A DNA stretch of 64,000 nucleotides. Origin: an uncultured Planctomycetia bacterium. GTDB lineage: Bacteria; Omnitrophota; Gorgyraeia; 2-02-FULL-51-18. The stretch is from positions 481,085 to 545,084 of the forward strand of contig CAZSGP010000001.1 of assembly GCA_964606485.1 (NCBI GenBank), written 5' to 3'. A program made the translations under genes and the position numbers. Shown here piece by piece: positions 13,026 through 56,857 of this stretch. The notes beneath the pieces are model-generated. The model worked only from the letters and a program-made list of their open reading frames with translations. It was not told the origin of the DNA and made no database searches. The first letter of the stretch is position 1. Every line of letters begins with the position of its first letter.

Positions 13026-15191
13026 ATGAACAGCCCCGAAGAATTGAAGGACAAATCCTTATCAAGTCCGGAGTATGGGGACATAAATAAATATCTCAAT
13101 ATCTTGTTCCAAGAACTTGAGAGCGAGTACATCGAAGTTAGATTTCTCGGTGGGTCGCTAGCATTAAGCCCAAAGTTTTATTCAAGTACTAGTAAATTAA
13201 TCGAGGAATACCCAACATTAATTAATTTACCCTGTAATGTTTACGTTGGTGTTTGCCCGAGAAGAGAAAGAAAGGGCGATAAGAAGTCAGTAAGCCGCAT
13301 CCGTTGTCTATGGTTGGACCTTGACGCCAAAACATTCTCAGGAGGGAAAGGGGAGATCCTGAAGCGGCTGCAAGAGTTTATGGTAAAGACGACAATGATT
13401 ATTGATAGCGGCAACGGCTATCATGCCTATTGGGCCCTAAAGGAACCCGAAACAAACCAAGAATTAATCGAGGTGTATCTCCGAAGCCTCGCTAGCGTAC
13501 TGGGTGCAGATAAAAGTGTGTGCGAGGTCGCGCACATATTAAGACCTCCGAAATCGTTTAACCGTAAGGACCCTTCCAAGCCTCTTCTAGTTCAGGCGGT
13601 CAGTATTCACGAGTCGCTTAGTTACAATTTGTCCGATTTTGATATTTTTCTTCAAAAGGAAGAAAAAGCAAACACTCAATTCGTAAGCAAATCAAAGGAC
13701 TGGATGGTTGATGCTCTGAGCGGTCTGGCTGAGGGTAACCGAAACGCGACCTTTGCCAGTATCGTGGGAAGGCTGCTCCGAGACGGCCACTCCTCCGATG
13801 AAATATACGCACTGCTTTTACCACACGCAGAGAAATGTCGGTTTCCGGCGGGTGAATTGCGGGGTGAGATTGATGGGATATCAAAACGGTATTCGAAACC
13901 CACAATTAAGTTGCTCGCTCCGCCGTCTGACTCAAGAAACCAATGGCCAGACTCAATGAAGCCAGCTGCGTATTACGGCTTGGTTGGCGATCTCGTGAGA
14001 ATCATTGAGCCGCATAGCGAATCGGACCCTGTGGCGCTACTTTCCATGATGATAGTTGGCATCGGCAACATGATTGGGCGAGGACCGCATCTTTTAGTTG
14101 AGGCTACTCGGCATTATCTGAATCTATTTGTTGTTGTTGTGGGCGCTTCAAGCCGGGCCAGAAAAGGTACAGCTTGGGGCCATGTTGAGATGATTTGTAG
14201 CCGTCTCGATGCAAACTGGGCTAAAAATTGTATAAACAAAGGGCTAGCCTCTGGCGAAGGACTCATCTGGAGTGTTCGTGACCCAATCTACAAGCTCCGT
14301 AAAAAGAAATCAGGAGAGTATGAAGAAGTTATGGAAGATAAAGGTGTCGATGACAAGAGAGTCCTTGTAATTGAAGAAGAATTTTCTTCACCGCTCAAAC
14401 TTATGCAGCGAGAAGGCAATATTCTCTCGCCAACTTTGCGCTGCGCCTGGGATAAGGGTAGTTTTCAAAGCTTAACCAAAAACACACCTGTAAAAGCAAC
14501 GGACGCACACCCATCAGTTATTGGGCATGTCACAAAAGACGAGCTTCTTCGGTGCTTTGACAAAACAGAGGCTGCTAATGGATTTGGGAACCGCATTTTA
14601 TGGTTGTGTACTAAGCGTAGCAAAGAGCTGCCCGATGGAGGATGTGTTCCCGAAGAGGAACTGGCTCCGATTCTTTTAGATTTGGCAGAAGCGGTAAATT
14701 GGGCAAGAACAGTTCAGGCGCTTAAACGCGATGAAGAAGCCAGGAAACTGTGGCATGAGGTGTATTCAGAATTAACAAGGGACACACCCGGCCTGCTTGG
14801 TGCTGTTATTTCACGGGCTGAGGCACAGGTGTCCAGGCTTTCATGTTTTTATGCGCTTTTAGATAAGTCACCGGTCATTCGAGTTGTTCACTTGAGGGCA
14901 GCACTTGCGTTCTGGGACTATGCGGAGCAGTCAGCCCGTCACATTTTTGGGGATCGATTAGGTTACCCCGAAGCAGATGAGATTTTGCAAGCCCTGCGAA
15001 CCAACCCACAAGGACTGACTCGGACTCAAATCCAGCAGCTTTTTCAGCGCAACAAGACTGCTGAGCACATACAGAAGGCCCTAGAGTTCCTCCATCATAA
15101 TCAATTTGCAGAAAAAATAATCGAAGAGACGAGCGGGAGACCGGCTGAGCGGTGGGTTGTGAAGGGAGTAAGTACGAATGAAACGAAATAA
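13026..15191 (+). CDS. Replication protein with an N-terminal bifunctional primase-polymerase (prim-pol) domain, 721 aa
   Basis: Prim-pol motifs LWLDLDAK (DxD), SGNGYHAYW and HILRPPKSFNRK at nt ~13306-13580. The C-terminal two-thirds are unassigned. The GASSRARKGT segment is not a canonical Walker A. Confidence 0.65.
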   Translation: MNSPEELKDKSLSSPEYGDINKYLNILFQELESEYIEVRFLGGSLALSPKFYSSTSKLIEEYPTLINLPCNVYVGVCPRRERKGDKKSVSRIRCLWLDLDAKTFSGGKGEILKRLQEFMVKTTMIIDSGNGYHAYWALKEPETNQELIEVYLRSLASVLGADKSVCEVAHILRPPKSFNRKDPSKPLLVQAVSIHESLSYNLSDFDIFLQKEEKANTQFVSKSKDWMVDALSGLAEGNRNATFASIVGRLLRDGHSSDEIYALLLPHAEKCRFPAGELRGEIDGISKRYSKPTIKLLAPPSDSRNQWPDSMKPAAYYGLVGDLVRIIEPHSESDPVALLSMMIVGIGNMIGRGPHLLVEATRHYLNLFVVVVGASSRARKGTAWGHVEMICSRLDANWAKNCINKGLASGEGLIWSVRDPIYKLRKKKSGEYEEVMEDKGVDDKRVLVIEEEFSSPLKLMQREGNILSPTLRCAWDKGSFQSLTKNTPVKATDAHPSVIGHVTKDELLRCFDKTEAANGFGNRILWLCTKRSKELPDGGCVPEEELAPILLDLAEAVNWARTVQALKRDEEARKLWHEVYSELTRDTPGLLGAVISRAEAQVSRLSCFYALLDKSPVIRVVHLRAALAFWDYAEQSARHIFGDRLGYPEADEILQALRTNPQGLTRTQIQQLFQRNKTAEHIQKALEFLHHNQFAEKIIEETSGRPAERWVVKGVSTNETK

Positions 15192-15261
15192 CAACCCTCC
15201 CATACCTTACTTCGTCAATTTCGTTTATTTCGTACGCCTATACAACTAAGCGGGGTGTCTT

Positions 15262-16890
15262 GTGGCGTTGCGAAATAAGCGAAAGAAAAAGAAAGAAGCC
15301 AAAAGCCACATTCCGAGTGTGGAAGAGCTCAAGATTTCCTATGACAAGGAGCTTCGAGCTCACAACTACCTGAGAGCCTATCTTGATGACTTAAACATTC
15401 CAATTCGTGATCGTGAAAAGCGGATGCCGGAATTTGAGTTAATTCTTTCTCGATTGAATGACCTGATTGGAGGGATAGAAGAACGATGGCGTCCGATGAC
15501 GGGCGATGAGATTCTTAATGGGTTTTCCAAAACCAGTGAATTGGGTCCCGATGAATTAAAGAACAGCCCGGTTCTGACGTCAGTTCCTACACTACCCAAA
15601 GATTTTGAGTTGGGTGATGAATTCAGAGAGTGCTTTGCAAAAGTAGAACAGGGCAAATCTCTTCTTCTAGAAGGTAATGCAGGCACCGGCAAAACAACTT
15701 TTCTAACTTACTGGAGCCGAAATACCAAAAAAAACTATGTGATTGTGGCCCCTACGGGAATTGCGGCAATAAACTCCGGCGGACAGACAATACACTCCTT
15801 CTTTAAGTTCCCACCCGAGCTAGTTCAAAAAAAGGATGTTCGCGAGCTTCAGCGCATTGGGCAAGTGTTTAGGGTACTTGATGTGCTCGTTATTGATGAA
15901 GTTTCCATGCTGCGAGCGGATTTGCTGGACGCCATCGACTACTCCTTACGAATAAATAGAAAAGTGCATGATGTGCCCTTTGGTGGTGTTCAGATAATTC
16001 TTATTGGAGATTTATGCCAGCTTCCGCCGATTGTTGATAAGGAGCTGGCTGAGCATTTTGGCGAGCTCTATGACACGCCCTATTTTTTTAGCGCGAAAGT
16101 TTTCAGTGATGCTCAGTTTCATCAATTCATTCTAAAAAAGAATTACAGGCAGCGAGACGCGAAGTTCATGTCTTTGCTGAATAAGGTTAGAAACCGAAGC
16201 ATCACCGAAGATGATTTACGGTTACTGAACACTCGCGTTAATTCTGTTCTCGCCGAGACATGGGATAATGCGATTCGACTGACACCCACAAACGCTGCAG
16301 CAAATGCTATAAACCAAATTCGTCTGGCAGAATTACCAGGGAAAGAGTTTTTGTATGAAGCTGTCATCAAGGGTGATTTTGACAACGCATTGTATCCCAC
16401 CGAAACCCAGCTAAAACTGAAAGTTGGCGCTCAGGTTCTCATGGTTAAAAACGATAACCCCAGTCGACGTTGGGTTAACGGCAGCATCGGAGAAGTTATC
16501 GAACTAAATTCTGATGCTGTGAAGGTGCGAATCGGCCATGGCGTTCATGATGTAACGCCCGTAATCTGGGAAAAAATTAAGTACAGGCATGACGAGCAGA
16601 CTGACGGTATTGTCTCAGATGTTGTCGGTAGTTTTGAACAATATCCAATCAGGCTTGCTTGGGCCGTCACGATTCACAAAAGCCAAGGCTTAACATTTGA
16701 CCGTGTTGTGGTCGATTTTGGTGAAGGCACATTTGTGCACGGGCAATGCTACGTTGCATTGAGTCGATGCAGATCCATCGAAGGCCTTGTCTTAAAGCGT
16801 GCCGTTAATTTTAGTGACATTATTTATGATGAACGGATTCATCGAATTTCCAAACTTTTCACGCCGCATGAAGGAAATCCCACGCTATGA
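15262..16890 (+). CDS. Pif1/RecD-family SF1 DNA helicase (542 aa)
   Basis: Walker A GNAGTGKTTFL, motif II VLVIDEVSML, ILIGDLCQLPPI and the C-terminal motif YAVTIHKSQGLTFDRVVV. Confidence 0.8.
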   Translation: MALRNKRKKKKEAKSHIPSVEELKISYDKELRAHNYLRAYLDDLNIPIRDREKRMPEFELILSRLNDLIGGIEERWRPMTGDEILNGFSKTSELGPDELKNSPVLTSVPTLPKDFELGDEFRECFAKVEQGKSLLLEGNAGTGKTTFLTYWSRNTKKNYVIVAPTGIAAINSGGQTIHSFFKFPPELVQKKDVRELQRIGQVFRVLDVLVIDEVSMLRADLLDAIDYSLRINRKVHDVPFGGVQIILIGDLCQLPPIVDKELAEHFGELYDTPYFFSAKVFSDAQFHQFILKKNYRQRDAKFMSLLNKVRNRSITEDDLRLLNTRVNSVLAETWDNAIRLTPTNAAANAINQIRLAELPGKEFLYEAVIKGDFDNALYPTETQLKLKVGAQVLMVKNDNPSRRWVNGSIGEVIELNSDAVKVRIGHGVHDVTPVIWEKIKYRHDEQTDGIVSDVVGSFEQYPIRLAWAVTIHKSQGLTFDRVVVDFGEGTFVHGQCYVALSRCRSIEGLVLKRAVNFSDIIYDERIHRISKLFTPHEGNPTL

Positions 16891-17011
16891 CAGAGACCAA
16901 ACCTCCTCTGTCATCAAGGCAAACCTCCACAAAAGCCAAAGTTAATCAACTTGCTGTGTCGCCCCAACCAACGGTAACATCCCGACCAATTCGGCTGAAA
17001 CGGAGTCCCAA

Positions 17012-18067
17012 ATGTTAGACGCCCTTGAGCGTGCAGGCATGTCCAACGCTCTGATACTCCCAAGCGATGTGCCTGCCCAAAAGGTGATTGCTTCAAAGGC
17101 GAGCTTCGTTTCAGCCGAGAAAGGAGTCAGTTTTGAACCGGTCCTTCAGAAGTTCTTGGATTACCTGAAGGTCCGGAATTATTCGGAGAAAACGCTTATT
17201 CGTTACCGGCGGGATTTAAGATTTTTGTTTCAATTTTTAAGCGCGGAGCGGGGAATTATATCAATTGATGACGTCACCAAAAAAGACCTTATGGAATATG
17301 AAAACGTCGTTTATTCATCAATGCGGTTAAAGGGTGATAGGCCCTTGAGTCAGGAAACAAAAGTTGGAAGGATTGTCGCCCTTAAAAGTTTTTATAATTT
17401 CCTGTCCAAGACTGAACTTATTCCCTTCAACCCCGCCTCGACAATTGATATTCCAGTGGTGCGAAACAATAAACTTCGCCAGTTTCTTACAGAAGATGAG
17501 GTTATTAAACTCCTTGAAGCGGCCAACGGTAAAGAGCCCCTCGAAGTCCGAAACCGCACCATTCTTGAACTTTTATATTCGACCGGCATAAGGGCCGATG
17601 AGCTCTTGAATGTAAGCTTAAAAGACATTGATCTTGAAAAACAGGAACTTCACATTCGTTTTGGAAAGGGCAGGATGGGCAAAAGAGAGCGTCTTGTTCC
17701 TATCGGTAAAATTGCAGCAGAGTGGCTTAAGCTTTACATCACCCATACAAGGCCAGTTTTCCAAAGGCGGGAGGACCAAGGGTATCTCTTTATATCCAAG
17801 AACGGCAGAAAACTTATGATTGCCGATCCCAACCGCATCGTTAAGCTTTACGCCAAGAAAGCCGCTATCGAGAAAAAAATTGTCTGCCATTCGCTGCGGC
17901 ATAGCTGCGCTACGCATATGCACCAGCATGGCTGCGACATTCGATTCATCCAAGAACTCCTTGGCCACGACTCAATCGAAACGACAACGATTTACACAAG
18001 GTTGGCCATCGACGATTTGAAGGAAATCCACGACAAAACCCATCCCAGGGAGCTTGACACTTCATGA
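17012..18067 (+). CDS. Tyrosine recombinase (XerC/D-like), first of a trio of adjacent recombinase genes (RitA-like)
   Basis: Core-binding domain plus catalytic residues LYSTGIR, GKGRMGKRER, HSLRHSCATH, LLGHDS and TTTIYTRL (Tyr). Confidence 0.8.
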   Translation: MLDALERAGMSNALILPSDVPAQKVIASKASFVSAEKGVSFEPVLQKFLDYLKVRNYSEKTLIRYRRDLRFLFQFLSAERGIISIDDVTKKDLMEYENVVYSSMRLKGDRPLSQETKVGRIVALKSFYNFLSKTELIPFNPASTIDIPVVRNNKLRQFLTEDEVIKLLEAANGKEPLEVRNRTILELLYSTGIRADELLNVSLKDIDLEKQELHIRFGKGRMGKRERLVPIGKIAAEWLKLYITHTRPVFQRREDQGYLFISKNGRKLMIADPNRIVKLYAKKAAIEKKIVCHSLRHSCATHMHQHGCDIRFIQELLGHDSIETTTIYTRLAIDDLKEIHDKTHPRELDTS

Positions 18068-18384
18068 AAGAGCTCTGGATGTATCTGGACCATCTATCGA
18101 AGGCGGGTCGGCAATTCATCACGGTCGATATATATAGGAGAGACCTGGGTCTTTTGGCCGACTTTTTATTTCGGGCGAAGAATAAAAACCTTGTCAGTGC
18201 CAGCACCGAAGACATCGAACCTTTTATGTATGAAACAAGTCAGCGTCTTTGCCAGTGGTGCTACTACAACCGGTATAACCGGATTTGGAACCTTTACAAC
18301 TTTTTTAAGACCGAAGGGCTCATTGGTGAAAATCCAATGGATGCAATCCCTCGGCCCAAAGCGCCAAGACGGGTTCGCCGATGA
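18064..18384 (+). pseudogene. Truncated tyrosine recombinase carrying only the N-terminal SAM-like core-binding domain (106 aa), middle member of the trio
   Basis: ATGA overlaps at both junctions (18064 and 18381). The sequence resembles the Xer N-terminal domain and no catalytic domain follows before the next full recombinase. Confidence 0.5.
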
Positions 18385-19277
18385 ACGAGATCACACGCTA
18401 TCTCGAATATCTCTACAATCGCGGCCACAAAGGTTCGAGTATCAAGACTATGCGTAAAGACCTTGAGGCGTTTGTGAGATTCCTGACGGGAGAGAGGAAG
18501 AAGGCCATCACGACTGCGATGCCGGAGGATATTGAAGCGTATCTTCTCAAAATAAAACCAACCGTGAGTGAGCACACGTATTACCACCGCTTCTCAACCG
18601 TAAGATGTTTCTACCGGTATCTCGCCATGGAAGAAATCATAGCTTTCAATCCTGCCGGGGCTATCCAGGGAATACGAACACCAAGCAGGCTTCCAAAATC
18701 TGTGCCCAGCGAATCGGAGGTTCAGGATTTCCTGAAAAAACCAAAACTTCACACAGTCTACGGAATCAGAGACCGTTCTATCTTTGAGCTTCTTTATTCC
18801 ACAGGACTCCGAAGTCAGGAGCTGCGTGATTTAAAACTCGAAGACCTTGATTTATCCCAGAGGGTTTTGACTGTGCGTGAAGGTAAAGGCGGGAAGGGGA
18901 GGCTTGTTCCATTTGGCAGAAAGGCAAAAGAGGCGGTCGAAGAATACATCAATAAATCGAGGACGATTTTAAATAAGAAATCAGGCACGTATTTATTTCT
19001 GACGGACCAGGGCAACCCCATGAGCGCCTACATTCTCCGGCACAATATGAACCGCTATCGAGATCCCGAGAACCGAACCGCAACCCCGCATTCATTTAGG
19101 CATGCCTGTGCGCTTCATATGCTGCGAGCCGGGGCCGGGATCCGACACCTTCAGCAGATGCTCGGCCACGAGCGGATCACGACAACTACTATTTACACCC
19201 GCCTCAACCCCGAAGACCTGAAGAAGGCCGTCAGAACGTATCATCCCCGCGAACTCCCGCCCAAAGACGAAAAATAG
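18381..19277 (+). CDS. Tyrosine recombinase (XerC/D-like), third of the trio (RitC-like)
   Basis: Catalytic residues LYSTGLRSQE, EGKGGKGR, HSFRHACALH, LGHER and TTTIYTRL. Confidence 0.8.
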   Translation: MNEITRYLEYLYNRGHKGSSIKTMRKDLEAFVRFLTGERKKAITTAMPEDIEAYLLKIKPTVSEHTYYHRFSTVRCFYRYLAMEEIIAFNPAGAIQGIRTPSRLPKSVPSESEVQDFLKKPKLHTVYGIRDRSIFELLYSTGLRSQELRDLKLEDLDLSQRVLTVREGKGGKGRLVPFGRKAKEAVEEYINKSRTILNKKSGTYLFLTDQGNPMSAYILRHNMNRYRDPENRTATPHSFRHACALHMLRAGAGIRHLQQMLGHERITTTTIYTRLNPEDLKKAVRTYHPRELPPKDEK

Positions 19278-19325
19278 TTCTTCGGCAATCAGTTACTCCG
19301 TAATCCCTCTGCGCAATACCATTTT

Positions 19326-22300
19326 GTGGTGATTACGTCGATTACCGAAACGAGTATCACGTACACGGACATGGGTATTGGCCGCGACAAGCAAAATGAA
19401 TCGGTGACGGTTTCAAAAGACGGCTTCTTAAAGGCATGGAGCGGAAACGTTTCGCTTGAATCCCAAAAAATTCAACTGCTTCCTAGCGCCCAAAACAAAA
19501 TTTTGTCTGCCGAAGACGCCAAAAAAGTCCGCGGTGCATTTTGGGGGAGTTTATTAGCGATGGTGGGAAGCGTGTTGAGTTGGATTCCCATTCCGGTGCT
19601 TCAGCAAATCGGTTGGGGTCTCACAGCCATCTCCATCGCTGTCTCTGCAATTGAGGGAGATTTTTTGACAGCCATCACTTCGGCTGTTAGCGTTTTTCTA
19701 CCCGGGCTCCGTCAATTATTTGGAAATGTGTTTGATGGCATAGGAGAATCTTTGGGATCCATTGGTCAAACATTCCAAAATGCGGGTGCCACTATTTACA
19801 ATTCTGTTACCGGGTTTATCAACAGCGCCATAAATTTCTTGCCAGGGGTAGGTCCGGTTCTTCAGTCGGCCGCCGCGTGGCAAGGCGCCTCATCCGTAGG
19901 AGCTTTGGTTGTGAACACGGCTTTAAAGATGGGTGTCGAATTTAGTGTGACCAGAGGCCTTGAGTCGTTGGGAGTTGGCTCGCAGATCGCTGGCTTCTTT
20001 GGGTCGTTAACCGCCAACGCTATTACGGCAGGACTTAAGCCGGAATCCTCAATCCAAGCGAATGGTCAAACGCAAGTTATGGTCTCGCATGCTCAGCAAG
20101 TTCAAAATGCTCTTCAACAAACGATTACAATTAGTCAAATCGGAAATCTTGGGATGCAACTAGGGCTTGCGCCGGAGCTCACGCAACTCGCTAGTCTTTC
20201 GGTAGGCGCCATCCAAGGAGCACAAATTTTAAATCCCGGCGGGCCGCTCGAGTATGCATTTTCTGAAATCGCTCCGAATCTCGTCACCACACTTGGGCAG
20301 TATGGACTTAGCGAACTTTCGAATGCAATTGGCCTACCGCCGATTGCTTCGCAGATGGTGGGGAATATAGGCGGTGCCGCTCTAAGCGCGGGACTGGGTT
20401 TTTCACACGCCGGAATGGATATAGTCAATGTGATTAATAATGAGACGATACGCAACGCGGTATCTCTTGGAATGACTTTTGGAATGGAGGCTCTCCAAAT
20501 TGCACCAAGTGCTAGCCAGTTTATTTTTGATCTCATGGATACGATTAAGGTTGGAGGGCAGAGCATCGGAAGCCGGTTGGTGGGAGCGGTAGTGGCGGGC
20601 TACCATTCGGCGGTTGATTTCTTGGCACAGCCCTTTAGATATCTTCCATTTGCCGCGCAAGAATTAAAAAATGGAATTATCTTTAGTTTAAATAGCTTTC
20701 AAAATTTTCTGGAGTCCATTCCAACGATATTTACTCCTCAAACACGTGAAGCAATCTATCAGAACGAAACATCTCTAAGTAGTGCTCAAATCGAACGCGA
20801 TGGGGACGTTTATCGTTTTCAATCTGGAAGCTCTATCGTGGAGTACGATGTTGTTCGAGATGTGCTAACCGAAACTACTCTGTCGCAACAATTGGAAATC
20901 AAAGGTTTTGGGTGGAATTCCCAAGGCGAACCCTACTACCAAAATTTAAGCTATCGCTCCGTGCTCGAAAACGGGCTTGTTTTGGAGGAAAATTTTGATG
21001 GCCAAGCATTAACGGATTGGTCGTATTTGATGGAGGGAAGAACGCTTGTAAAAGTGAACGTGGGCCACGAGGGACCTTTTTACGATATAGATGATTTCGT
21101 AGAATCCGGTTCGATTGAGATGGCGGCGCCAATCACATTTCAGACGACAGAGGCGAGCCCTACCCATGAAATTGAATCTTATGATGCGCCTTTCAGATTT
21201 GTTCTTAGTGTTAGCAATGGGAGCATTACCTCAACCACAGCAGAGATCATCAGAGAGCACGTTAACGATTCGCGTCTAGACGAAGATCTTTATGTTCTTG
21301 TAAACGGAATTGCTAATGAAAATATCCGCTTGGAAGGCTCGCCTCAATATCTTCAAAATCTTGAAACTGATTTGGTGAGTCGCAGTCAAGGTCAGATCCA
21401 GCATCAGGATATTATAAAGGCCTCTACATTTTTTAACTTTGCGACCTATCAATTTTTAAGCGGGCTAGGCAATTACACAACACTTGGAGCCGGTAGCGTT
21501 TATCGGGCAGTGCTCGAGCTCATCACCGGTGAAATTCAGAATAGTCTTTCACTTATGACAAAAGATATTGTTCTGTGGCTTGCCGAAGTTTCTAACCCAG
21601 CTCGACAATCGCTGTTGGTAGGGGATATTCGCCGGGCTGTTGAGGGTTTCTTTTCCGTCAATCCGGCCACTCGCCAAAGAGATATCATTGGCGTTGGTTA
21701 TTCCGGAGGTTTTGTGCCGCTTACCGAGGCGGTAGCCCGAGTTCCTTATAGCGCAAATCCTTTAGCCGGGTATAATACAAAAAGTCTTGTAGCTATCGGC
21801 GCAGCCTTGGTGCGACCCGATCAGATATTTAATGATATATTACTCAAGTTGCTTCAAGCCGCTGACTACTTGCAAAATCCGGGCCAGGTGGCCCTTGGAG
21901 TGTTGGAGACGACATTGAACGATCTTGATCAAGTGCTTTTGACAACTCCGGGAGTGGGAGTCGGAATTACTCAGGCAGTCATCCGGAGAGTTATTGCTTT
22001 TGTCGCGCAAGGCTCTCCTGAGCAAGCCTACCAAGAATACCAGCAAAGATTAAATGCCATCTCTGGAGCGCTCTCGAATTTATTTCCTAGCGCGTTTCAA
22101 GGGTTTGCTCTGGACGACTTAACTGGTTCTAGCACCCAAACCATCGTCAATTTATATGGCACAAGGGATATTTTAGCTAACTTTGCTGTCAATGGACATG
22201 CGATTGGAGGGTATAGAGACGATATCGCCGGGTTCACTCAAACCAATCGTGATCATCAACTTGTAAATATCGAGATTGTTGGGGCCACTCACTTTGACTA

Positions 22301-22535
22301 CATGCGGAGAGAAACAACATTTACTTCGTCCATCGTTAATTTTTTTAATCCCTCGGTAGCGGAATGGAACCGGACGGTTAGTGCGTTTGTGGCGGATGTT
22401 GTTGCTAATAGCCGTGATACCGCTTCGATTACCAGGTTCTTGAGGAATCCATCTCCGGATTTAGTGGGAGTTCAGGTTGTCGAAGAATTAGATAGGTGGG
22501 TAGTTTACTTGCCAGGATACACTGACCATGAATAA
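19326..22535 (+). CDS. 5'-truncated paralog (1069 aa, GTG start) of the C-terminal ~900 aa of the giant protein at 28731..41801. It spans the distal half of the C39-like domain, the glycine-zipper membrane region and the lipase-like alpha/beta-hydrolase. It may be an orphan module or a pseudogene.
   Basis: VVITSITETSITYTDMGIGRDKQNESVTVSKDGFLKAWSGNVSLE aligns to YVIITNVTENSVTYIDPSIGKDKENESLTVTKEGFLKLWQGNVTLE. The paralogs are roughly 50% identical throughout, and the in-frame homology (RNPSAQYHF vs NPSS..VHY) extends back to nt 19281. The GYSGG...GTRD...GATHFDY triad is conserved. Confidence 0.6.
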   Translation: MVITSITETSITYTDMGIGRDKQNESVTVSKDGFLKAWSGNVSLESQKIQLLPSAQNKILSAEDAKKVRGAFWGSLLAMVGSVLSWIPIPVLQQIGWGLTAISIAVSAIEGDFLTAITSAVSVFLPGLRQLFGNVFDGIGESLGSIGQTFQNAGATIYNSVTGFINSAINFLPGVGPVLQSAAAWQGASSVGALVVNTALKMGVEFSVTRGLESLGVGSQIAGFFGSLTANAITAGLKPESSIQANGQTQVMVSHAQQVQNALQQTITISQIGNLGMQLGLAPELTQLASLSVGAIQGAQILNPGGPLEYAFSEIAPNLVTTLGQYGLSELSNAIGLPPIASQMVGNIGGAALSAGLGFSHAGMDIVNVINNETIRNAVSLGMTFGMEALQIAPSASQFIFDLMDTIKVGGQSIGSRLVGAVVAGYHSAVDFLAQPFRYLPFAAQELKNGIIFSLNSFQNFLESIPTIFTPQTREAIYQNETSLSSAQIERDGDVYRFQSGSSIVEYDVVRDVLTETTLSQQLEIKGFGWNSQGEPYYQNLSYRSVLENGLVLEENFDGQALTDWSYLMEGRTLVKVNVGHEGPFYDIDDFVESGSIEMAAPITFQTTEASPTHEIESYDAPFRFVLSVSNGSITSTTAEIIREHVNDSRLDEDLYVLVNGIANENIRLEGSPQYLQNLETDLVSRSQGQIQHQDIIKASTFFNFATYQFLSGLGNYTTLGAGSVYRAVLELITGEIQNSLSLMTKDIVLWLAEVSNPARQSLLVGDIRRAVEGFFSVNPATRQRDIIGVGYSGGFVPLTEAVARVPYSANPLAGYNTKSLVAIGAALVRPDQIFNDILLKLLQAADYLQNPGQVALGVLETTLNDLDQVLLTTPGVGVGITQAVIRRVIAFVAQGSPEQAYQEYQQRLNAISGALSNLFPSAFQGFALDDLTGSSTQTIVNLYGTRDILANFAVNGHAIGGYRDDIAGFTQTNRDHQLVNIEIVGATHFDYMRRETTFTSSIVNFFNPSVAEWNRTVSAFVADVVANSRDTASITRFLRNPSPDLVGVQVVEELDRWVVYLPGYTDHE

Positions 22536-23280
22536 TATTAGAAAAATAACTCTCATTTTTGCAATAATTTCGATTGTCTGTAGTGCGTGGTTAGTACCGC
22601 ATCCAGCATTCGCTAAATCAGAAAAATATGATTTACGTTTGCTTGCCGAAAAAAATTCTCTTGAAAAGCAAGGGAGAAATTACGAATATCAGTCCGAATT
22701 TGATAGAGCAGCTCAAAAATATCAAGAAGCGGTTGAGTTGGACAATAGAATCTACGGCTCAAAAAACGGAAGAGCTCTCGCTTTTTTAGCGGAGGTTTTT
22801 CAAAAGCAAAATAGGTATGAAGATGCTCTTGAGCTAGTATTAGGTTTGGTTGTTGCGCACCCAAAACAAGAGAACTATTTGGATTGGAAGAGTGAATTAG
22901 ACGCTTTGATCAAATACAAGAATACGGGTTCTCAAGAACCTGTATCTGAATACCTAAAAGGTTATTCAAAGAAATACGAATCTAAGCTACCCCCAAATAC
23001 CTACACCTTTGGGAGCATTTTCTATGTTAATCGCATTCTGATGCTCTACGACACCATCGGCGATTACGATGCAGGAATTACATTTATCGATGAAGTTTTG
23101 GCTTATTTCAGAACCGGCAAAGCAGGAGACCCTAATCCTGGCCGTGTGGATGCGGAATACATAAAAATCAGAGAAGCCTTCGAGCTAGACAAAAAAGAAG
23201 GCAAAAAAGGTTCCATGAAGGAAGGAAAGCCCGGTCGGGCTACGCTAGCCCTCATCCAATCCGATTATTTTCCCTGGTGA
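22528..23280 (+). CDS. Membrane-anchored/secreted helical-repeat (TPR/Sel1-like?) protein. It occupies the same position as 41807..42268.
   Basis: N-terminal hydrophobic segment ITLIFAIISIVCSAWLV; Tyr/Leu/Glu-rich helical composition. Both this gene and 41807..42268 lie immediately after the hydrolase-domain end of a giant-gene copy. Confidence 0.35.
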   Translation: MNNIRKITLIFAIISIVCSAWLVPHPAFAKSEKYDLRLLAEKNSLEKQGRNYEYQSEFDRAAQKYQEAVELDNRIYGSKNGRALAFLAEVFQKQNRYEDALELVLGLVVAHPKQENYLDWKSELDALIKYKNTGSQEPVSEYLKGYSKKYESKLPPNTYTFGSIFYVNRILMLYDTIGDYDAGITFIDEVLAYFRTGKAGDPNPGRVDAEYIKIREAFELDKKEGKKGSMKEGKPGRATLALIQSDYFPW

Positions 23281-24565: not shown

Positions 24566-25006
24566 ATGAGACGACTTGGAATAATTCTCGCAGTAGTTGG
24601 ACTGAGCTTGGTTTCAAGTCGTCTCGTTTTTGCTGAGGCGCCGCGGCAGGCGGCTTTACCGCTTGTGCTGACGAAGGGGCTTGATGCCTACGTTTTGGAG
24701 GGCCCCGAGGCAGCGGTGAGGGAATGGATAAAAGGTGGGCCCATTGAGTCTGACCCGAACGCTCAAAAAAGCGCCGAAACGTTCAAGGAAGTAGAAAGTT
24801 TCTACGGCAAATTTAAAAATGCCGAGCTCATCCGCGTTAAAAAAGTAACACACTCTTCGAGACTTTATTATTTGCAAATGAATTACGAAAAAGGGCCGCT
24901 CTTTGCGCGGTTTTTGTGCTATCGCGTGGGCCAAGCATGGATTGTGAGCGGCCGTTTTGTGGTGGACACGGATCCGAGCCGCGTGCTGCCACCAGCCTTG
25001 CTCTAA
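24566..25006 (+). CDS. Secreted protein of unknown function (146 aa)
   Basis: Signal peptide LAVVGLSLVSSRLVFA-EA. Confidence 0.35.
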   Translation: MRRLGIILAVVGLSLVSSRLVFAEAPRQAALPLVLTKGLDAYVLEGPEAAVREWIKGGPIESDPNAQKSAETFKEVESFYGKFKNAELIRVKKVTHSSRLYYLQMNYEKGPLFARFLCYRVGQAWIVSGRFVVDTDPSRVLPPALL

Positions 25007-25200
25007 TGAGCACTCCGCCTCAAACCGTTCTCACCGTCAAAGAACTTGCTAGTTACCTGCGCGTTCAACCACTCACCGTTTACAAGCACGCTTCCGAAGG
25101 TCGTCTACCGGCTTTTAAGATTGGTGCTCGCTGGCGCTTCGAGAAACAGGCGATTACGAGTTGGATCCAACAGCAGCAAAGTCCCTATCTAGCAGAGTAG
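25006..25200 (+). CDS. Excisionase/AlpA-family helix-turn-helix DNA-binding protein (65 aa from ATG 25006)
   Basis: LTVKELASYLRVQPLTVYKHASEGRLPAFKIGARWRFEKQAI matches the excisionase-family HTH pattern. Its TAATG overlaps the previous stop codon. A paralog lies at 43700..43912. Confidence 0.6.
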   Translation: MSTPPQTVLTVKELASYLRVQPLTVYKHASEGRLPAFKIGARWRFEKQAITSWIQQQQSPYLAE

Positions 25201-25255
25201 TTCAATTTACCCAGCATCGACTTGAAAATGATATCAAAATATGGTACTACTATAA

Positions 25256-28730: not shown

Positions 28731-31700
28731 ATGAAAACTAAATCTGTCTTTTTCAAATCTATCTGCTGGACGCTAATTCTTAGCTTCTCGTATTCGCAGT
28801 TTTGTTATGCCTTAACTCCGAGAGAGCTTTTAGATCAGGCCAAAGCTTCCTTTGGACTTATGGGAGATGATCATCATCAGGGAGGAGGATCGAACCCGGT
28901 AGATTTGCAACAAAGCCAAGTCCAAGCTCAAAGTGCCGTAGATCAGCAAAATAATCTACAAGACCTTCAAAATCTAAACTTTTCTCTAACCACTCAAAAC
29001 GGCGACACCTTAAATTACGTTAATAACACGCTTTCACAAATCACACGTCCGGACGGAACCACTTTAAATAATATTAGTCAGGACGCAATGACCGGCAATA
29101 TCACAGGTGCCAACTTAAGATTAAATGATGGAACAATTCAAATCCTCCAAAATGGAAATATTTTAGGAAGTCAAACCCCTGATGGCACCCAAGTTTTCTA
29201 TGACCTTCAGACTGGCAAAGTTCAAAGAACCGTTTCTTCAAGTGGTGAGGAAACAACGTACACATACATCAACAGCGAAACGATTCTTGAAAGTGCCCAC
29301 TTTCAAACTGCCTACGACGCCAATGATAAAATTAAGCATATTTTAGATAAACAAACGCACAAAGAGAGTTTTTTTAATAACGGCATTCTCCAAAGAATTG
29401 AAGAAGTTGATCATTCCCAGTATTTATTCGGTCATGAGACTACGGGGACAGATATCCGCGTAAGCCTGGAAGCTTTTATCGACTCCATCGGCAACCGATT
29501 TGATTTTACTGGAGACGACGTCTCCCGAGTGACGCTCGTGGATGGGACCGAGCTTCAAAATACGGTTTGGAACTCTCAAGACCAAACGCTCCGAGACTTT
29601 TCATTTACAGAAGCCTCAGGAAATACCCGCACCGTTTTAAATAATCAAACCTCACAGATCGATCTTTCGAATAATGGTGGAAGCATCACGGACATTACTT
29701 GGAATCCCCAAACACATGCTCTAGAAAATTACCACTTTACAAATCCAGCGGGTGACGACTTCACGGTCGTAAATGGATTGGCTAGCCAAATCCACTTAGC
29801 CAGTAATCAGGGTTCTATCTCTAATAGCATTCTAGATCCCAGTACAGGCCTTCTTCGGGACTATGTGTTCACCGACCCAGCAGGGAACGTGTTTACCGCT
29901 CTAAATAACCAAGCCACTCAAATTGATCTTTATAATCATCAGGGCGAGATTTCAAATATCACTTGGAACCCCACCAACCATACTCTCGAAGACTACGTCT
30001 TCACCGATCCAAACGGGAATGAATTCACAGTCGCCCAAACCCAAGTCTCTCAAATTTTTCTTCCAAGTGGCCAAGGCCGACTGACGAACATCACCTGGAA
30101 TTCTTTAGATCAAACCTTAAAAAACTACACCTTTACCGATTTTGATGGAAATGTCTTTACAGTCGTTGATAATCAAACCACACGCATCGTTCTTTCTGGG
30201 AATAGGGGAGAGCTCGCCGGTATTGAGTGGGATGCCGTCACACATTCTCTAAAAAACTACACCCACACGGATTCCGCTGGAAATATCTTCACCGTTCAAA
30301 ATAATCAAACTATCCAAATTGATCTTGCAAACAGCGCAGGACGCATTACGAATATCGTTTGGAATCCCCAAACGCTTGCACTGGAAAGCTACCACTTTAC
30401 AAATTCCTCAGGCGACGAGTTTGCGGTTAATAACGGTCAAACCACCGAGATTCTTTTAGCGAACAACGATGGACGCCTTACCAATATTATATGGGACTCA
30501 CAAACGTACGCTCTTTCAAACTACATGCTGACCGATCTAGCGGGAAATCAATTTACCGTTGCCCAAAACCAAACCACTCAAATAGCGCTTTCTAATAATG
30601 CCGGAGTGATCACAAATATTCTCTGGGATAACGCCACTCATCTGCTAAAGGATTATGTTTTCACAGACTCCACCGGAAACGTCTCTACCGTTCAAAACAA
30701 TCAAACCGTTCAAATCAATATTCCAACCCAGGGCAACTTAACCAACATTGTTTGGAGTTCAACAACTCAAAGTCTCGCAGATTTTATTTTTACAGATCTT
30801 TCTGGAAATGCATTTACAGTTCAAAATAATCAGACCACACATATAGCCCTTTCCAATTCAAGAGGCACACTCACTAATACAGGATGGGACAGTGCAACGG
30901 GCGTTCTAAAGGATTATTTATTTACAAATCCGTCCGGAGATATTTTTACAGTAATCAACGACCAGACCTCAGACGTTCTTTTGGCAAACAATGCCGGTCG
31001 CCTTACGAATATCATCTTCGACCCTCAATCCCATCTCACCAAAGACTATGTGCTCACTGATTCGGCAGGGAATATCTTTACCGTCGTCAATAACCAAGCC
31101 ACCGAAATCGATCTTGCCCATAACGCCGGACGCATTACCGGAATCATTTGGAATTCACAAAATACAATCGACCAAGCCTTGCTAACCGATTCCCAGAATA
31201 GACAGATCCAATATCAGGGTGGAGTTGCTACAAGAATTACTCTGCCAAGCGGCGAGGTTATCTCCAACATCACATGGAATTCTAACGGCACGGTGCATGA
31301 AGCAGCGCTTGCCGACTCGCAGAACAACCAATATTTCTTCCGAGACAACGTAATTATAAAAGTCCAAGACTCGAATGGTGTTTTATTTGAAAATATTCTT
31401 TGGGGCCAAGACCAAAAGATTAAAGACGCCTCTGTGACGTTTCCAGACGGCCGAACCACTCTCTATCAAGATAAGAAGCTTATCCGGTTAACCGATGCCC
31501 AGGGAGTCATCACAAACTTCACTTATACTCCCGATAGAATTCTTGCGAGTTCCAATGGAATAAACTCCGAATATTTATTAGACGGCACCCTCGTTAAAAC
31601 AACCGATGCTCAAGGCAATCAAACTTTATACTTCGCTCAAGGCCCCCAAAAAGGCCTAAAAGAAAAAGACGTGACAGTTGCAGGGGACACCTTTATCTAC

Positions 31701-34700
31701 GAATATTCTCAAAACAACACTCTCATCCAGAGAAGACAAGTTCTAAGATCTGAGCAGACTGTCACCACCATCGAAGGCCAGACCACACTTCAAGCTAAAA
31801 ATAATCCTTTCTTCGGATTTGAGGCCTCATTCCAAAACCCTGAACTCGATTCCCAAGAAGTTCGTCTGATTACAAACGGTTCTTATCCTTTGGAAATTAA
31901 GCTCAAACCCGGTCAAGACGCGGCTTTCTCCTTTAATAGAGGTGCTTTTCAATCCCTGGGAGTTCGAATCGAACAAGGCTTTGCTTACAAAGTCGAGATC
32001 CAGATTTCAAAGACGGGTATCCAAATCTTTATCTACAAATCCACTGATCCTAGGCCTTCCAATCCCGCTAGAACTATTCAGCGAAGCAATTGGAATACCC
32101 GATTTGAAATTATTTCCACTAACGCCCAAGTGCGGCTCGACGCTCGCTCCGCCGGAACTTATCGCACGGATACCACGACCCAGGACCGGCAAAACGCTTA
32201 TCGCTCTGGAAGCCCCGTTGAGCAACTGACGTTTAGACTCACCCCCCAAAACTCTTACAGCCGTCCAAGTATTCAGCTGACTGCCGAACAGCAGAACACA
32301 TCGCGTCAAAAGCGTACGTTTTATTTGGATTATCAAAATAACCAGTGGAGAATCACGGCTTTCGGTGGAGGAATCAGTTTCCAGAGCTTCGCTATCAATC
32401 AAACCCTTCAAAGTAACGTGGATTACGCGGCAGAACTCCGCTTCGAAAATAACCAGCTTAAGTTTTATGTGTATCCCAAAGGCCAACAAAGACCTCAAAG
32501 CCCACTCGCGACGCTGAATGCGCTCACAAATGCCTCAGCGCGTTTTAATTCTGACTTCAACAACGCCCAAGGGCAAGCTCAAGTGCTTTATAATCTCACG
32601 AGCCCCACTCTTTCAAGTGCCAGAGCTTCGTCGCTTCCTCAGAATATGGATCTTTTGCAAAACTCAAATCTCCTTTCACAAACGCTACCTTCGGCGCCGA
32701 TGAGTTTGTCTTATCAGAATCCCGGATTTTCTTTTGCAGAAAGCCAGCTTGCGCTCCAAAGACCTGATTTTCGGATGACTCAAGTCTCGTTCGCGTTCAC
32801 CGAGCCGAATATTCATGAGACCGAGTTTAGTCCATCCCTGGCAGGGCCGACTTTCGTATTTAATGAACCGGTATTTTCTTTTTCAAGGCCTAATCTTAAT
32901 TTAACCCAAACCAACGTCTCATCGATGGTCAATCCATCGATTTCACTGATTCAGAATGATCTAAATTTAATAACGGACCAAACCATTTCAATTGTACGGC
33001 CTCTCAAATTTGATTTGGATAATGCCATCGGTTTTAGCTCAACGACCTATAACCTTCATGGTGGGCTCGAAGAAGTTTTAAAAGCTGATAGTTCGCGGTA
33101 TGTGTTTGAAGACGGTGTTTTGTCCCAGGCATTTAACGCGCAAGGCCAAGCCACTAACTTTAGTTTTCAGGAGTCCGGCCTCTCAAATGTTGTGGGCGCT
33201 ACGATTTCTCAGAACCAAGTCCAATCTCATTACAGCGCAGAAGGGGAATTAGAGTCTGTTGTTGTAGGGGATATGACAGTTCATTACGGCTCTAATCAAT
33301 CGATTGATTATTTGGAAAAATCAGACGGCACCGAAATCCACGACATCACGTTTGACGCAAACGGACAAATCCAAAATGCCAGCGTCTATCTGCCGGATGG
33401 GAGAATCAAGTTTTATGAGAACGGGCATCTTGTTAGAAGCCAGGAAGCCGACCATTCCCAGCTTTTCTTTGTGAATGACCAAGCTGTTCAAATGATCACC
33501 GCTCAGAATCTCACGTATGATTTTAATTACACTCCCGGACACATCGAAGCAGTTCTCAATACGGCGAATATCCCAATCCCGGACGCTCTAACGCCGGTGA
33601 GAATGCAGCATGACTCAAACTTTAATCTCCAACAGATAGTTCGCCAAAACAATGAAATTATTAACTTCACCAATAACCAGGTTCAAAGCGTCCAAACTCC
33701 CAGCCAGTCCCCGCAAACGATAGTTCAGCTAGCAGACGGTTATAAAGTTTTGCAAGACAACACCGAAACTTTCTATGATTCAAACAATCAAATCCAAAAA
33801 GTGCTGATTCACACTACAGCCAGTAACTCCCACGAATTAGAAGTGAGCTATCAGTACGGCAAGATCCGTCAGATTAAAAAAGACAATACCCTCACTTTCA
33901 CGTACTCCTATGAATTTACTTCAGAGAATAAGGAGCGGACGGTTATTCACGACCTTGAAGAAAACTCCACAAAGACCTATGAAAACGAGCTCCTTCTGAC
34001 TAGTTTTGATAACGACACGTCCGTACTCTCGAATTATTCTTATGATGCCAACAAGAAAGTTTCTCGGGTTGTGGTTTCGCGTCTGGGGCGAACGCTTCAC
34101 ACCTACAACTATACTTATTCAAATGATCAAACCCTCGTTACCGATGAAGAGGGAATTCTGAGAACCTACGACTCCAACAACAAGCTCATTTTCCTTGATA
34201 AAGAAAATAAGCGCTTTACCTACACCTATCACACCGATGCTACGACTCACGAAGAAATCATCGAAGAAAAACTGATTCGTCAAACTTTAGAGGGCGGAGC
34301 GGTCGTTGATTACGATGTGGACGGACAAATCCAAAAAATCCAAAACACTGACGGAACGTTTATTGACCACGTGGTTTTAGGTGGCCAGCGAAACATCCAA
34401 AAAGCCACGATTCATCTTTTAGATGGAACGAGTAAAGTCTTTAGCGGAACCCAAATTCTTGAAGAAATCACCCCGCAAAACACTCACTTTTATTTTGACG
34501 AGGGCAGAATTACAAGGGTGGTAGGCTCCCAAGGGGATGAATTTGATTATATTTATGACCAGGACTCCGGCGGAAACGTTGTGCGAGTCAGATCAGATAT
34601 TGGACAAGCTTACTTAGAGTACGACATTAACGGAGATCTTCAAGGATTTCGTCCGAAAGATAGTAATCAGTTTTACCATCTCACAAAAACGTTCGATGCG

Positions 34701-56606: not shown

Positions 56607-56821
56607 GCCCGCCTGTTTTAAGCAGAATTAAGCCTCGCTTAATTTAAACCTGCAAGCTTCGACTACGAGCTTTATTAAGCATTTATTATGATGGTTCGTA
56701 ACTACTTCAAAAATAACAGGTTATAACACATAACGACTTGATTTTTAGCTCTTCTTATGGCAACCTTTAGCGATTGTATTATTGGACGGAAATAATCTAT
56801 TGATTTAAAATCAAATATTAT

Positions 56822-56850: not shown

Positions 56851-56857
56851 TTCTCGC

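What the first reader, a model, noticed from the sequence alone, without database searches (positions are those of the whole stretch)
19230..19400. Mobile-element boundary coincides exactly with the truncation point of a giant-gene paralog
In-frame homology to the giant protein (…NPSSKIIAHINSVHYVIITNVTEN… versus …RNPSAQYHFVVITSITET…) starts at nt ~19281, three nt after the last recombinase's stop codon (TAG 19275-19277). A paralogous giant gene was therefore cut in the middle of its C39-like domain, exactly where the recombinase/replication element ends. Either the element inserted into that gene, with the 5' part lying beyond the element's other end and possibly outside this window, or recombination at the element end deleted it.
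Basis: seen in the sequence. Interest (0 to 1): 0.65.

Follow-up and report, generated by a model that had tools for sequence, protein, structure and literature searches.

The report
Recombinase junction truncating a giant-gene paralog
A mobile element's Xer-like recombinase operon ends about 45 bases before a headless 3' copy of a giant Omnitrophota protein gene, and the same junction at the same histidine codon recurs in four other phages or elements, so it is a site-specific attachment junction and not a chance truncation.

Summary
The truncated paralog is real. The frame open over 19278-22535 matches the last ~900 residues of the 4,356-aa giant protein (E 3e-88), starting at the His motif of its C39-like domain. 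Two details of the observation fail. Homology starts at 19317-19320, not 19281. The shared frame with the recombinase stop is incidental.

The 42-nt spacer belongs to the element. The operon is Int (351 aa), a 106-aa Xer N-domain protein, then Int (298 aa). Orthologous operons in four other Omnitrophota-associated lineages, two of them prophages, have a similar spacer and then a different giant-gene 3' module cut at the same His codon. Recombinase and module identities are incongruent (92% versus 43%). A related prophage with three full recombinases abuts a module cut at another conserved motif (HFGQ|SAF) of the same domain.

Best reading: an attR-type junction of an integrative element that targets conserved C39-motif codons, with the ORF as the displaced 3' part.

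Unresolved: no 5' half was found, neither in the window nor left of the one fully visible related prophage. A cassette-swapping reading therefore stays open. This is a new variant of a known kind and moderately interesting.

The parts
13026..15191 (+). Primase-like replication protein. Backbone of the element in this window.
   Evidence: Weak Pfam PriCT_1 and RepB_primase hits. PHROG DNA primase/polymerase families, E 1e-10 to 1e-6.
15262..16890 (+). Pif1/Dda-like SF1B helicase. Element backbone.
   Evidence: Pfam PIF1 E 1.5e-27. PHROG Dda-like helicase E 1.6e-82.
17012..18067 (+). Int1, a Xer-like tyrosine recombinase and first gene of the Int-X-Int operon.
   Evidence: Phage_integrase E 2.6e-45. 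XerC/XerD NCBIfam hits are below the curated cut-offs. 66-68% aa identity to Int1 of L006 and L010. The R, K, HxxR, H and Y catalytic motifs are readable in the translation.
18064..18384 (+). X, a 106-aa protein that matches only the N-terminal (core-binding, SAM-like) part of Xer recombinases. It overlaps both neighbours by 4 nt.
   Evidence: NCBIfam XerD positions 3-99 of 290, E 1e-6. Orthologues of 106-112 aa sit between the two recombinases in L006, L010, L012 and L194, with 38-71% aa identity.
18381..19277 (+). Int3, a Xer-like tyrosine recombinase and the last gene of the element. Its stop is TAG 19275-19277.
   Evidence: Phage_integrase E 8.4e-42. Orthologues at 92, 71, 69 and 64% aa identity in L005, L006, L010 and L012.
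19278..19319 (+). Element-side arm of the junction (spacer). It holds a degenerate copy of the target's 'GGCAAC CAYTWT' (G-N-H-Y/F) at 19284-19295, and a block at 19300-19319 that is conserved with L005.
   Evidence: Alignment with L005. Junction sequences of five lineages. Background-level match to the intact-gene profile.
19320..19328 (+). Inferred crossover region, CAT TTT GTG (the H-F-V of the C39-like His motif). These are the last bases shared with L005 and the first bases homologous to intact giant genes.
   Evidence: GTG 19326 is the start listed for this ORF. In L005 the called gene starts at the homologous GTG, position 816.
19320..22535 (+). 5'-truncated paralog, the displaced 3' module of a giant-protein gene. 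It comprises the His half of the C39-like domain, a Gly-rich membrane region and a C-terminal GYSGG / H..DY domain. The ORF is uninterrupted to the family's normal C-terminus.
   Evidence: In the protein collection it is P0001, 1,054 aa, called from ATG 19371.
22528..23280 (+). Small secreted TPR protein whose gene overlaps the module's stop. Small TPR-like proteins also follow intact giant genes.
   Evidence: Pfam TPR hits. Comparison of the genes downstream of modules and giants: weak similarity only.
28731..41801 (+). Intact 4,356-aa giant gene, the reference paralog. Its unoccupied equivalent site is CACTACGTCATCATCAC at 39120-39136.

Best explanation
Window 19278-19328 is the right-hand (attR-type) junction of an integrative element. 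The element's Xer-like module (Int1, the N-domain-only protein X, Int3; 17012-19277) recombines at the codons of the His motif (Y|H-F/Y-V) in the C39-like domain of Omnitrophota giant-protein genes. The element side ends with a ~42-nt arm. That arm holds a degenerate copy of the target half-site.

From 19320 onward the DNA is target-gene DNA. The ORF running to 22535 is the 3' part of a giant-gene copy. It has no promoter of its own and no N-terminal part, and it can only be read from internal starts (GTG 19326 or ATG 19371) on read-through from the recombinase operon.

Shown: the truncation, its exact position, its recurrence with orthologous recombinases on different element backbones, and the discontinuity of similarity at the junction. 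Inferred: that the recombinases made the junction, that the two full recombinases act as a heteromeric Xer-like pair on an asymmetric site, and that the module is host-derived. Unknown: where the 5' part is. It may lie beyond the window, with other island cargo stacked in between. It may have been lost after integration. Or the target may already have been a 5'-less copy.
For: (1) Truncation. BLASTP gives E 3e-88 from the His motif onward, and the alignment continues to the C-terminus.

(2) Recurrence. Int-X-Int, a ~50-90-nt spacer and a module starting at (Y)H(Y/F)V occur in L005. They also occur in L006-L009, a prophage with tape-measure, Dit and collar genes, in the prophage L010/L011, and in L012.

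(3) Breakpoint. The profile test places it at the His codon in all five lineages.

(4) Incongruent histories. For window versus L005, Int3 is 92% identical in aa and the module 43%. By nt the identities are 83.7% in Int3, 86% over 19300-19328 and 53% in the next 45 nt.

(5) The site tracks the recombinase set. L055 is a related prophage with three full recombinases and an HTH protein. It abuts a module cut at HFGQ|SAF in the same domain.

(6) The module looks host-like. From about codon 15 on, the L055 module has pS 0.17 and dN/dS 0.17 against the intact gene L043 of the same sample. Among IMG/VR viral contigs only the L006 contig holds a module, and none holds the N-half.

(7) Element-side arms carry degenerate copies of the target, as attP sites of gene-targeting integrases often do (my own knowledge).

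(8) A candidate att core, a 14/15 direct repeat, sits at both ends of the L188/L055 prophage.
Against: No 5' half was found. There is none in window 1-28,700 and none within 10 kb left of the L188/L055 prophage. No second att-like site lies left of the junction in the window, so the element's left end and size are undefined.

No empty site (attB) and no circular junction (attP) was recovered for any lineage. All five or six truncated modules keep uninterrupted ORFs of 885-1,071 codons. That fits recent events, but it also fits maintained function.

The window's element-side arm (CTCTGCGCAATAC) departs from the CTSTGTGAKKAMTAC seen in the others, so this copy may no longer be active. The L188/L055 repeat is not significant on its own (E 0.16 in a small search). 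The link between the HFGQ|SAF site and a recombinase set rests on one lineage.
Confidence: 0.65

Rival explanations
1. Cassette swapping. The truncated module belongs to the element and lies directly next to its attP. Integration into a resident giant gene at the His codons would fuse the host's N-terminal ~3,400 residues in frame to the element's C-terminal module, and would push the host's own module to the far end. The Int-att-module arrangement would then be seen in free and integrated forms alike. The precedent, from my own knowledge, is prophages that supply a replacement 3' end for the gene they interrupt, such as e14 and phage 21 in icd. Here the replacement would be on the scale of 3 kb.
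For: No 5' half lies at the left end of the one complete prophage. All modules keep long intact ORFs and sit on the recombinase strand with no terminator in between. Contigs often end just after the module. The family has naturally interchangeable C-terminal modules joined close to this point: beta-propeller variants and LamG-domain insertions.
Against: Int3 and module identities are incongruent. Three of five spacers have a stop codon in the module frame immediately upstream; this is harmless to the model but gives it no support. No IMG/VR viral contig other than the L006 contig carries a module. The same phage core occurs without the recombinases and module (L017, and the contig held as L018/L090/L108). 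The L055 module closely resembles a chromosomal intact gene of the same sample. No giant gene followed by element genes was seen among 70 metagenome loci, though their downstream regions were screened only for recombinase homologues and not for other element genes.
Confidence: 0.13
2. Pre-existing orphan module. 5'-less copies of the C-terminal module exist on their own in these genomes, like orphan toxin modules of Rhs/CDI loci. The element merely integrated at, or next to, such a copy. The element did not cause the truncation.
For: L004 and L013 hold 5'-truncated modules with no recombinase nearby. Their homology starts 15-40 residues upstream of the His motif. In L188/L055 the putative att repeat would place an unrelated 85-aa gene directly before the truncated module in the unoccupied state.
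Against: Five independent lineages are cut at the same codon, always with orthologous recombinases and a related spacer. The orphans without recombinases are cut elsewhere. Pre-existing orphans would not explain why the breakpoint follows the recombinase type.
Confidence: 0.12
3. A bona fide short gene, or a chance adjacency. The ORF from GTG 19326 would be an independent ~1,070-aa gene that happens to follow a recombinase, or the 5' part was removed by a deletion unrelated to the recombinases.
For: The ORF is intact and gene callers call it (P0001). Complete short forms of the family exist that start upstream of the whole C39-like domain (P0138).
Against: It starts in the middle of a domain. 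Complete short forms include the whole domain. The identical breakpoint in five lineages cannot be chance. Similarity upstream of the breakpoint is to other elements and not to genes.
Confidence: 0.04

Closest known systems
Temperate-phage or integrative-element integration into a protein-coding gene by a tyrosine integrase (lambda-type attP x attB). Examples from my own knowledge are e14 and phage 21 in icd, which leave a displaced 3' gene fragment at one prophage end.
   Same: The recombinase genes are the last genes of the element and are transcribed towards the junction. The junction sits at a fixed position in a conserved gene. A headless 3' fragment of the target lies just outside the element. 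The element-side arm carries a degenerate copy of target sequence.
   Different: There are two full recombinases plus an N-domain-only protein, instead of one Int plus Xis. The target is a family of giant, highly divergent paralogous genes and not a single housekeeping gene. attL, attP and attB were not recovered, and the 5' half is missing where it could be checked.
Recombinase-in-trio (RIT) elements: three adjacent tyrosine recombinases flanked by terminal inverted repeats (as summarised in PMC10214605).
   Same: Three co-oriented, overlapping genes of tyrosine-recombinase ancestry. The L055 relative has three full-length recombinases.
   Different: The middle gene of the window's operon is only 106 aa and has no catalytic domain. 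No inverted repeats flank the trio. Here the trio is the integration module of larger elements, namely phages and a primase/helicase element, and is not a stand-alone unit.
Multi-recombinase site-specific elements: SEs (intA-tfp-intB-srap), GInts (ginABCD) and Tn554 (tnpABC) (PMC10214605).
   Same: Two catalytic tyrosine recombinases plus a non-catalytic protein of recombinase ancestry. Target-site specificity. No obvious long target duplication.
   Different: In that study Tfp hits under 550 aa were filtered out as putatively truncated, whereas X is 106 aa. No Srap/GinD/TnpC counterpart was identified. In SEs (PMC10214605, Fig. 1 legend and Fig. 2) intA is the gene next to attL; that SE/GInt recombinase operons are read inward from that end is my own reading and was not checked, whereas this operon is read outward towards the junction. 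Those hosts are Proteobacteria and Firmicutes.
Xer/dif recombination and the IMEX elements that use it.
   Same: Both recombinases are most similar to XerC/XerD. A heteromeric pair on an asymmetric site with a ~6-bp central region is a plausible working model. In L006 the junction reads as 15-nt imperfect inverted arms around CACTAT (the 12/15 arm match is my own reading).
   Different: Scores are well below the XerC/XerD equivalog cut-offs (231-251 versus 330-335 bits). The element encodes its own recombinases, and the site lies inside a coding sequence and is not dif.
Orphan C-terminal modules of polymorphic toxin loci such as Rhs, CdiA and MafB (my own knowledge).
   Same: A silent, 5'-less copy of a variable C-terminal module keeps a piece of the conserved region. 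It lies near full-length paralogs (28731-41801, and 56861 onward).
   Different: Here it lies upstream of the full gene, separated from it by unrelated genes. It is only 31% identical in protein, too divergent for homologous exchange. Its edge coincides with a recombinase-linked site. No conserved immunity-like partner was found.

Membership tests
Lambda-type integrated element (attL-element-attR) | Tyrosine integrase gene(s) adjacent to one att junction | tested here: met
   Int3 stops 42 nt before the breakpoint. The arrangement is the same in four other lineages.
Lambda-type integrated element (attL-element-attR) | Direct repeat of a core sequence at both element ends | tested here: inconclusive
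   No second copy lies in the window, so the left end may be outside it. In L188/L055 there is a 14/15 repeat, GGCTCGCTTAA[A/C]GCT, at both prophage ends, with E 0.16.
Lambda-type integrated element (attL-element-attR) | Both halves of the interrupted target flank the element, or an empty attB exists in relatives | tested here: not met
   The 3' half is present. No 5' half lies in window 1-28,700 or left of the L188 prophage. No empty orthologous site was recovered. Intact paralogs do carry the site, for example at 39120.
RIT element | Three full-length tyrosine recombinases, each with a catalytic Tyr | tested here: not met
   The middle gene is 106 aa and matches only XerD positions 3-99. The feature is met in the relative L055.
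RIT element | Terminal inverted repeats flanking the trio | tested here: not met
   No inverted repeat brackets 17012-19277. The only nearby pair, I3, lies inside Int1.
SE / GInt | intA-tfp-intB-srap or ginABCD gene set (in that study Tfp hits under 550 aa were filtered out as putatively truncated; a fourth small protein is essential) | tested here: not met
   X is 106 aa and no fourth conserved gene follows Int3. The comparison is by gene organisation as described in PMC10214605. No sequence comparison with Tfp, Srap or GinD was run.
XerC/XerD chromosome-dimer resolvases | Score above the NCBIfam equivalog cut-off | tested here: not met
   Int1 scores 250.8 bits against TIGR02225 recomb_XerD (cut-off 329.6) and 248.1 against TIGR02224 recomb_XerC (cut-off 335.15). 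Int3 scores 230.7 and 227.1 against the same two models.
Peptidase C39 domain (the target) | Pfam PF03412 match, with the His motif aligned to the catalytic His | tested here: met
   The giant protein scores 31.2 bits (cut-off 22) over residues 3419-3509. HYVIIT aligns with HFVVIY of PDB 7n87, weakly (E 0.99). The paralog alone gives no Pfam hit, as expected for half a domain.
Peptidase C39 domain (the target) | Catalytic Cys in the N-terminal half | not tested
   The conserved motif is HFGQSAF, with no Cys. The Pfam match starts at model position 46, so the Cys position was not aligned. The domain may be a non-catalytic C39-like domain.
Orphan modules of polymorphic toxin systems | Orphan lies downstream of the full gene, shares a near-identical conserved stretch for homologous exchange, and is paired with an immunity gene | tested here: not met
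   The module lies 6 kb upstream of the giant gene. DNA similarity to the giant gene is limited to one 127-nt stretch at 72%. The small downstream genes are not conserved.

The most novel reading that the evidence does not exclude
The Int-X-Int elements, and the three-recombinase relatives, are module-exchange devices for giant surface proteins. Each would carry a promoterless C-terminal cassette abutting its att site. On integration at the conserved C39-motif codons it would fuse that cassette in frame to a resident giant gene and park the old module behind the recombinases. Phages and other mobile elements would then rewire the business end of 3,000-7,000-residue proteins in a phylum thought to live by attacking other cells.
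Probability: 0.13. Interest if true: 0.85.

Novelty: new variant of a known kind. Interest (0 to 1): 0.55.

Why it matters
Giant genes of Omnitrophota have been described, but how they diversify and what destabilises them is open. In the papers I could search, the only link to mobile DNA is that integrases and tyrosine recombinases occur among genes flanking giants. This result points to a specific, testable interaction. A family of temperate phages and other integrative elements uses the most conserved codons of the giants' C39-like domain as landing sites. That explains headless 3' copies of these genes. It also gives a sequence signature, the Int-X-Int operon plus spacer plus His codon, for finding such elements and their hosts in metagenomes. 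Finally, it defines a two-recombinase-plus-N-domain-protein module whose site can be synthesised and tested. If the cassette-swapping reading held, it would be a new way of generating diversity in very large proteins.

Tried and rejected
- The protein comparison BLASTP with composition adjustment missed the main alignment. I reran it without adjustment.
- The search for homologous proteins with the paralog returned only itself.
- Exact look-ups of window proteins found no contig on record, so the source contig could not be extended.
- The first representative search failed because the profile was too long. It was rerun with A3.
- Direct and inverted repeat searches for att sites in window 1-30,000 gave only short matches that look like chance. 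A 24/33 match at 4476-4508 lies inside an intact helicase gene, and a 12/13 match at 24952-24964 lies inside ORF 24566-25006. Both were rejected as chance.
- A second giant-gene N-terminal region at 56,861 onward was considered as the 'missing 5' part'. It is a separate full-length paralog that runs off the window.
- P0135 was considered as a second HFGQ|SAF cut. Its frame is continuous through the motif, and the split gene call comes from a frameshift further upstream.
- The 216-nt match between the right end of L006 and L035 is a dispersed ~80-nt tandem repeat and not synteny.
- Walking the related prophage leftwards through IMG/VR gave phage genes only. The left flank was finally reached through P0273 and L188.
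- Circularity of the L188/L055 contig could not be tested, because its first 2.6 kb were not retrievable.
- More distant Int3 relatives were uninformative: the L194 contig ends 49 nt after Int3, and L195 has no module.
Full report
**What is at the coordinates.** The window is a chromosomal stretch of an Omnitrophota-like genome. All four relatives of the giant-gene region found in genome collections are Candidatus Omnitrophota MAGs. On the + strand, 13026-19277 encodes a primase-like protein, a Pif1/Dda-like helicase, a 351-aa tyrosine recombinase (Int1), a 106-aa protein (X) and a 298-aa tyrosine recombinase (Int3). Int3 ends with TAG at 19275-19277. The same reading frame then stays open to 22535. 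A 4,356-aa giant gene lies at 28731-41801, with Laminin_G_3 and Peptidase_C39 Pfam matches.

**Check of the observation.**
- BLASTP without composition adjustment aligns residues 15-727 of the open frame to giant residues 3464-4160 (31% identity, E 3e-88). The default comparison had missed this.
- A global alignment extends the similarity to both C-termini, including GYSGG and H..DY motifs.
- The paralog therefore corresponds to the last ~900 residues of a giant protein. It begins at the His motif (HFVVIT versus HYVIIT) inside the Pfam C39 match at giant residues 3419-3509. That part of the finding is correct.
- The stated start of homology (~19281) is not correct. I built a profile from 32 intact family genes. 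The 45 nt upstream of the His codon (19320) match it at background (0.23; intact genes mean 0.58, minimum 0.42). The 45 nt downstream match like a real gene (0.57 versus mean 0.67).

**The spacer belongs to the element.** A 1.5-kb metagenome contig (L005) carries an Int3 orthologue that is 92% identical in protein.
- Nucleotide identity to the window is 83.7% across Int3 and 86% across 19300-19328. It is 53% in the next 45 nt and lower after that.
- In L005 the module is in another frame than the recombinase, and a TAA sits right before TAC-CAT.
- The shared frame in the window and the 'NPS' match are therefore incidental.

**The junction recurs.** Orthologous Int-X-Int operons were found in three further lineages (Int1 66-72%, X 38-71%, Int3 64-74% aa identity).
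- L006-L009 are the same arrangement recovered from three different sequencing samples. It is a prophage with tape-measure, Dit and collar genes, and it is also present in IMG/VR.
- L010/L011 are a related prophage.
- L012 is a short contig.
- In each, a ~50-90-nt spacer follows Int3, and then comes a giant-gene C-terminal module whose homology starts at the same (Y)H(Y/F)V codons.
- The spacers share a layout. A degenerate GGCAAC-CAYTWT (the target's G-N-H-Y/F codons) lies 28-30 nt upstream of the real His codon. Then comes a CTSTGTGAKKAMTAC block.
- In L006 the junction reads as 15-nt imperfect inverted arms around CACTAT. The target's V-I-I-T codons (GTGATCATCAC) are themselves a palindrome. 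Both points are my own reading.
- The window's own arm is less regular (CTCTGCGCAATAC).

**The two sides have separate histories.** Int3 and module identities do not track each other: window versus L005 gives 92% against 43%. The same recombinase module is attached to different backbones, a primase/helicase element here and tailed phages elsewhere. Related phage cores also occur without it (L017, and the contig held as L018/L090/L108).

**A second site in the same domain.** L055 is a prophage with tail genes related to those of L006. It has three full-length recombinases and an HTH protein. It abuts a module cut at HFGQ|SAF, another conserved motif, about 95-100 residues upstream of the His motif.
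- Against an intact gene of the same sample (L043), the element side keeps only ~60-66% remnant similarity for ~40 nt.
- The first 15 codons after the cut are identical in protein but almost saturated at synonymous sites (pS 0.89).
- From codon 15 on, pS falls to 0.17 with dN/dS 0.17.
- A breakpoint that changes with the recombinase set is what site-specific recombination predicts. This rests on one lineage.

**What the family looks like.** An HMM search of 1.84 billion representatives found 336 proteins, mostly of 2,000-7,000 aa, with this region about three quarters of the way along.
- The loop just before the His motif is a natural module boundary. Some members have an in-frame ~230-270-aa LamG-like domain inserted there. 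Others switch there to a beta-propeller C-terminus.
- Headless modules without any recombinase nearby also exist (L004, L013). They are cut 15-40 residues further upstream.

**The missing 5' half.**
- No relic of a giant N-terminal part and no C39 N-half motif occurs in window 1-28,700.
- Apart from the junction itself, the only sequence matching the site pattern is the unoccupied site of the intact giant gene at 39120.
- IMG/VR holds no contig with the N-half, and only the L006 contig holds a module.
- The left flank of the L055 prophage was reached via L188, the same 47.8-kb contig. It shows a cI-like repressor and two HTH genes. Beyond them come response regulators, a HisKA_7TM kinase, PEMT, a ketoacyl synthase and an excisionase-like gene. 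There is no giant-gene fragment.
- A 14/15 direct repeat sits at both prophage ends (E 0.16, so only suggestive).
- Tandem accretion of elements at one att site, loss of the 5' part, an already headless target, or cassette carriage would each fit these data.

**Interpretation.** The best-supported reading (about 0.65) is that 19278-19328 is an attR-type junction made by the Int1/X/Int3 module at the His-motif codons, and that the ORF is the displaced 3' part of a target copy.
- No terminator-like site separates Int3 from it, so read-through transcription is possible.
- The cassette-swapping alternative (about 0.13) is favoured by the intact ORFs and the missing 5' half. It is disfavoured by the incongruent identities, by the host-like L055 module and by the absence of modules from viral contigs.
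- An orphan target is given about 0.12. A real short gene or a chance adjacency is given about 0.04.

**Comparison with known systems.**
- Both recombinases resemble XerC/XerD but score well below the NCBIfam cut-offs. X matches only the Xer N-terminal domain.
- The operon fails the RIT definition: three full recombinases and terminal inverted repeats are both absent. It also lacks the SE/GInt gene set.
- It behaves like the integration module of a lambda-type element that targets a coding sequence.
- Papers on Omnitrophota giant genes mention C39-like domains and, in general terms, integrases and tyrosine recombinases among genes flanking giants. They do not mention this site or junction.
- I rate it a new variant of a known kind, with interest 0.55.

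Noticed in passing
window 22-7619: A co-oriented defence-like gene set: an MmeI-type target-recognition-domain protein, a 1,299-aa helicase, an MZB (MrfA Zn-binding, DUF1998-like) protein and a PLD nuclease. From my own knowledge this resembles DISARM. PD-(D/E)XK, GIY-YIG and trypsin-like genes follow up to 10686. It may be cargo of the same island.
   Followed up: partly
window 56804-64000 (+): A third family member. A full-size giant gene starts near 56861 (41% identity to giant residues 1-432) and runs off the window, so the ORF listing does not list it.
   Followed up: partly
L022 10289-10975; also L024, L027, L029, L034/L036: An in-frame ~230-270-aa LamG/ConA-like domain is inserted between the N-half of the C39-like domain and '...RIIAHINGNHY'. 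A whole domain is thus nested in the loop of another domain.
   Followed up: partly
P0210, P0268, P0219, P0241 (protein ids): These giants keep the N-half of the C39-like domain and then switch, just before the His motif, to an unrelated C-terminus. In three of them it looks like a beta-propeller.
   Followed up: no
L055 6378-10001, with L188 as its left flank: A prophage with three full tyrosine recombinases and an HTH protein abuts a giant-gene module cut at HFGQ|SAF. The first 15 codons after the cut are identical in protein to the intact gene L043 but nearly saturated at synonymous sites.
   Followed up: yes
L004 9700-10988; L013 1-3361: Headless modules with no recombinase nearby. In L004 a long hairpin-forming repeat lies at 9690-9800, just upstream.
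   Followed up: partly
L189-L192 (e.g. L190 3-5581): A giant gene is called as two overlapping ORFs because of a frameshift shortly upstream of its C39-like domain. The same split is seen in four assemblies, so it is probably real.
   Followed up: partly
L006 14499-14714; L035 16665-16877 and 13425-13549: A dispersed tandem repeat of ~80 nt is shared at 98-100% between contigs from different samples. It lies at contig ends and is probably a cause of assembly breaks.
   Followed up: no
window 24916-25829: An excisionase-family HTH_17 gene is followed by a HicA/HicB toxin-antitoxin pair, between the truncated module's neighbourhood and recQ. The HTH_17 protein also matches the MADS defence-system HTH model below its cut-off.
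   Followed up: no
L195 1158-6486: A compact ~5-kb element with an HTH repressor, a DnaG-type primase and two tyrosine recombinases (44% identity to Int3), with no X protein and no giant-gene module. It marks the outer limit of the association.
   Followed up: partly
window 12694-12972; L188 16769-17029: A SpoVG-family gene sits just upstream of the primase in the window's element. A SpoVG-family gene also occurs inside the L188 prophage.
   Followed up: no
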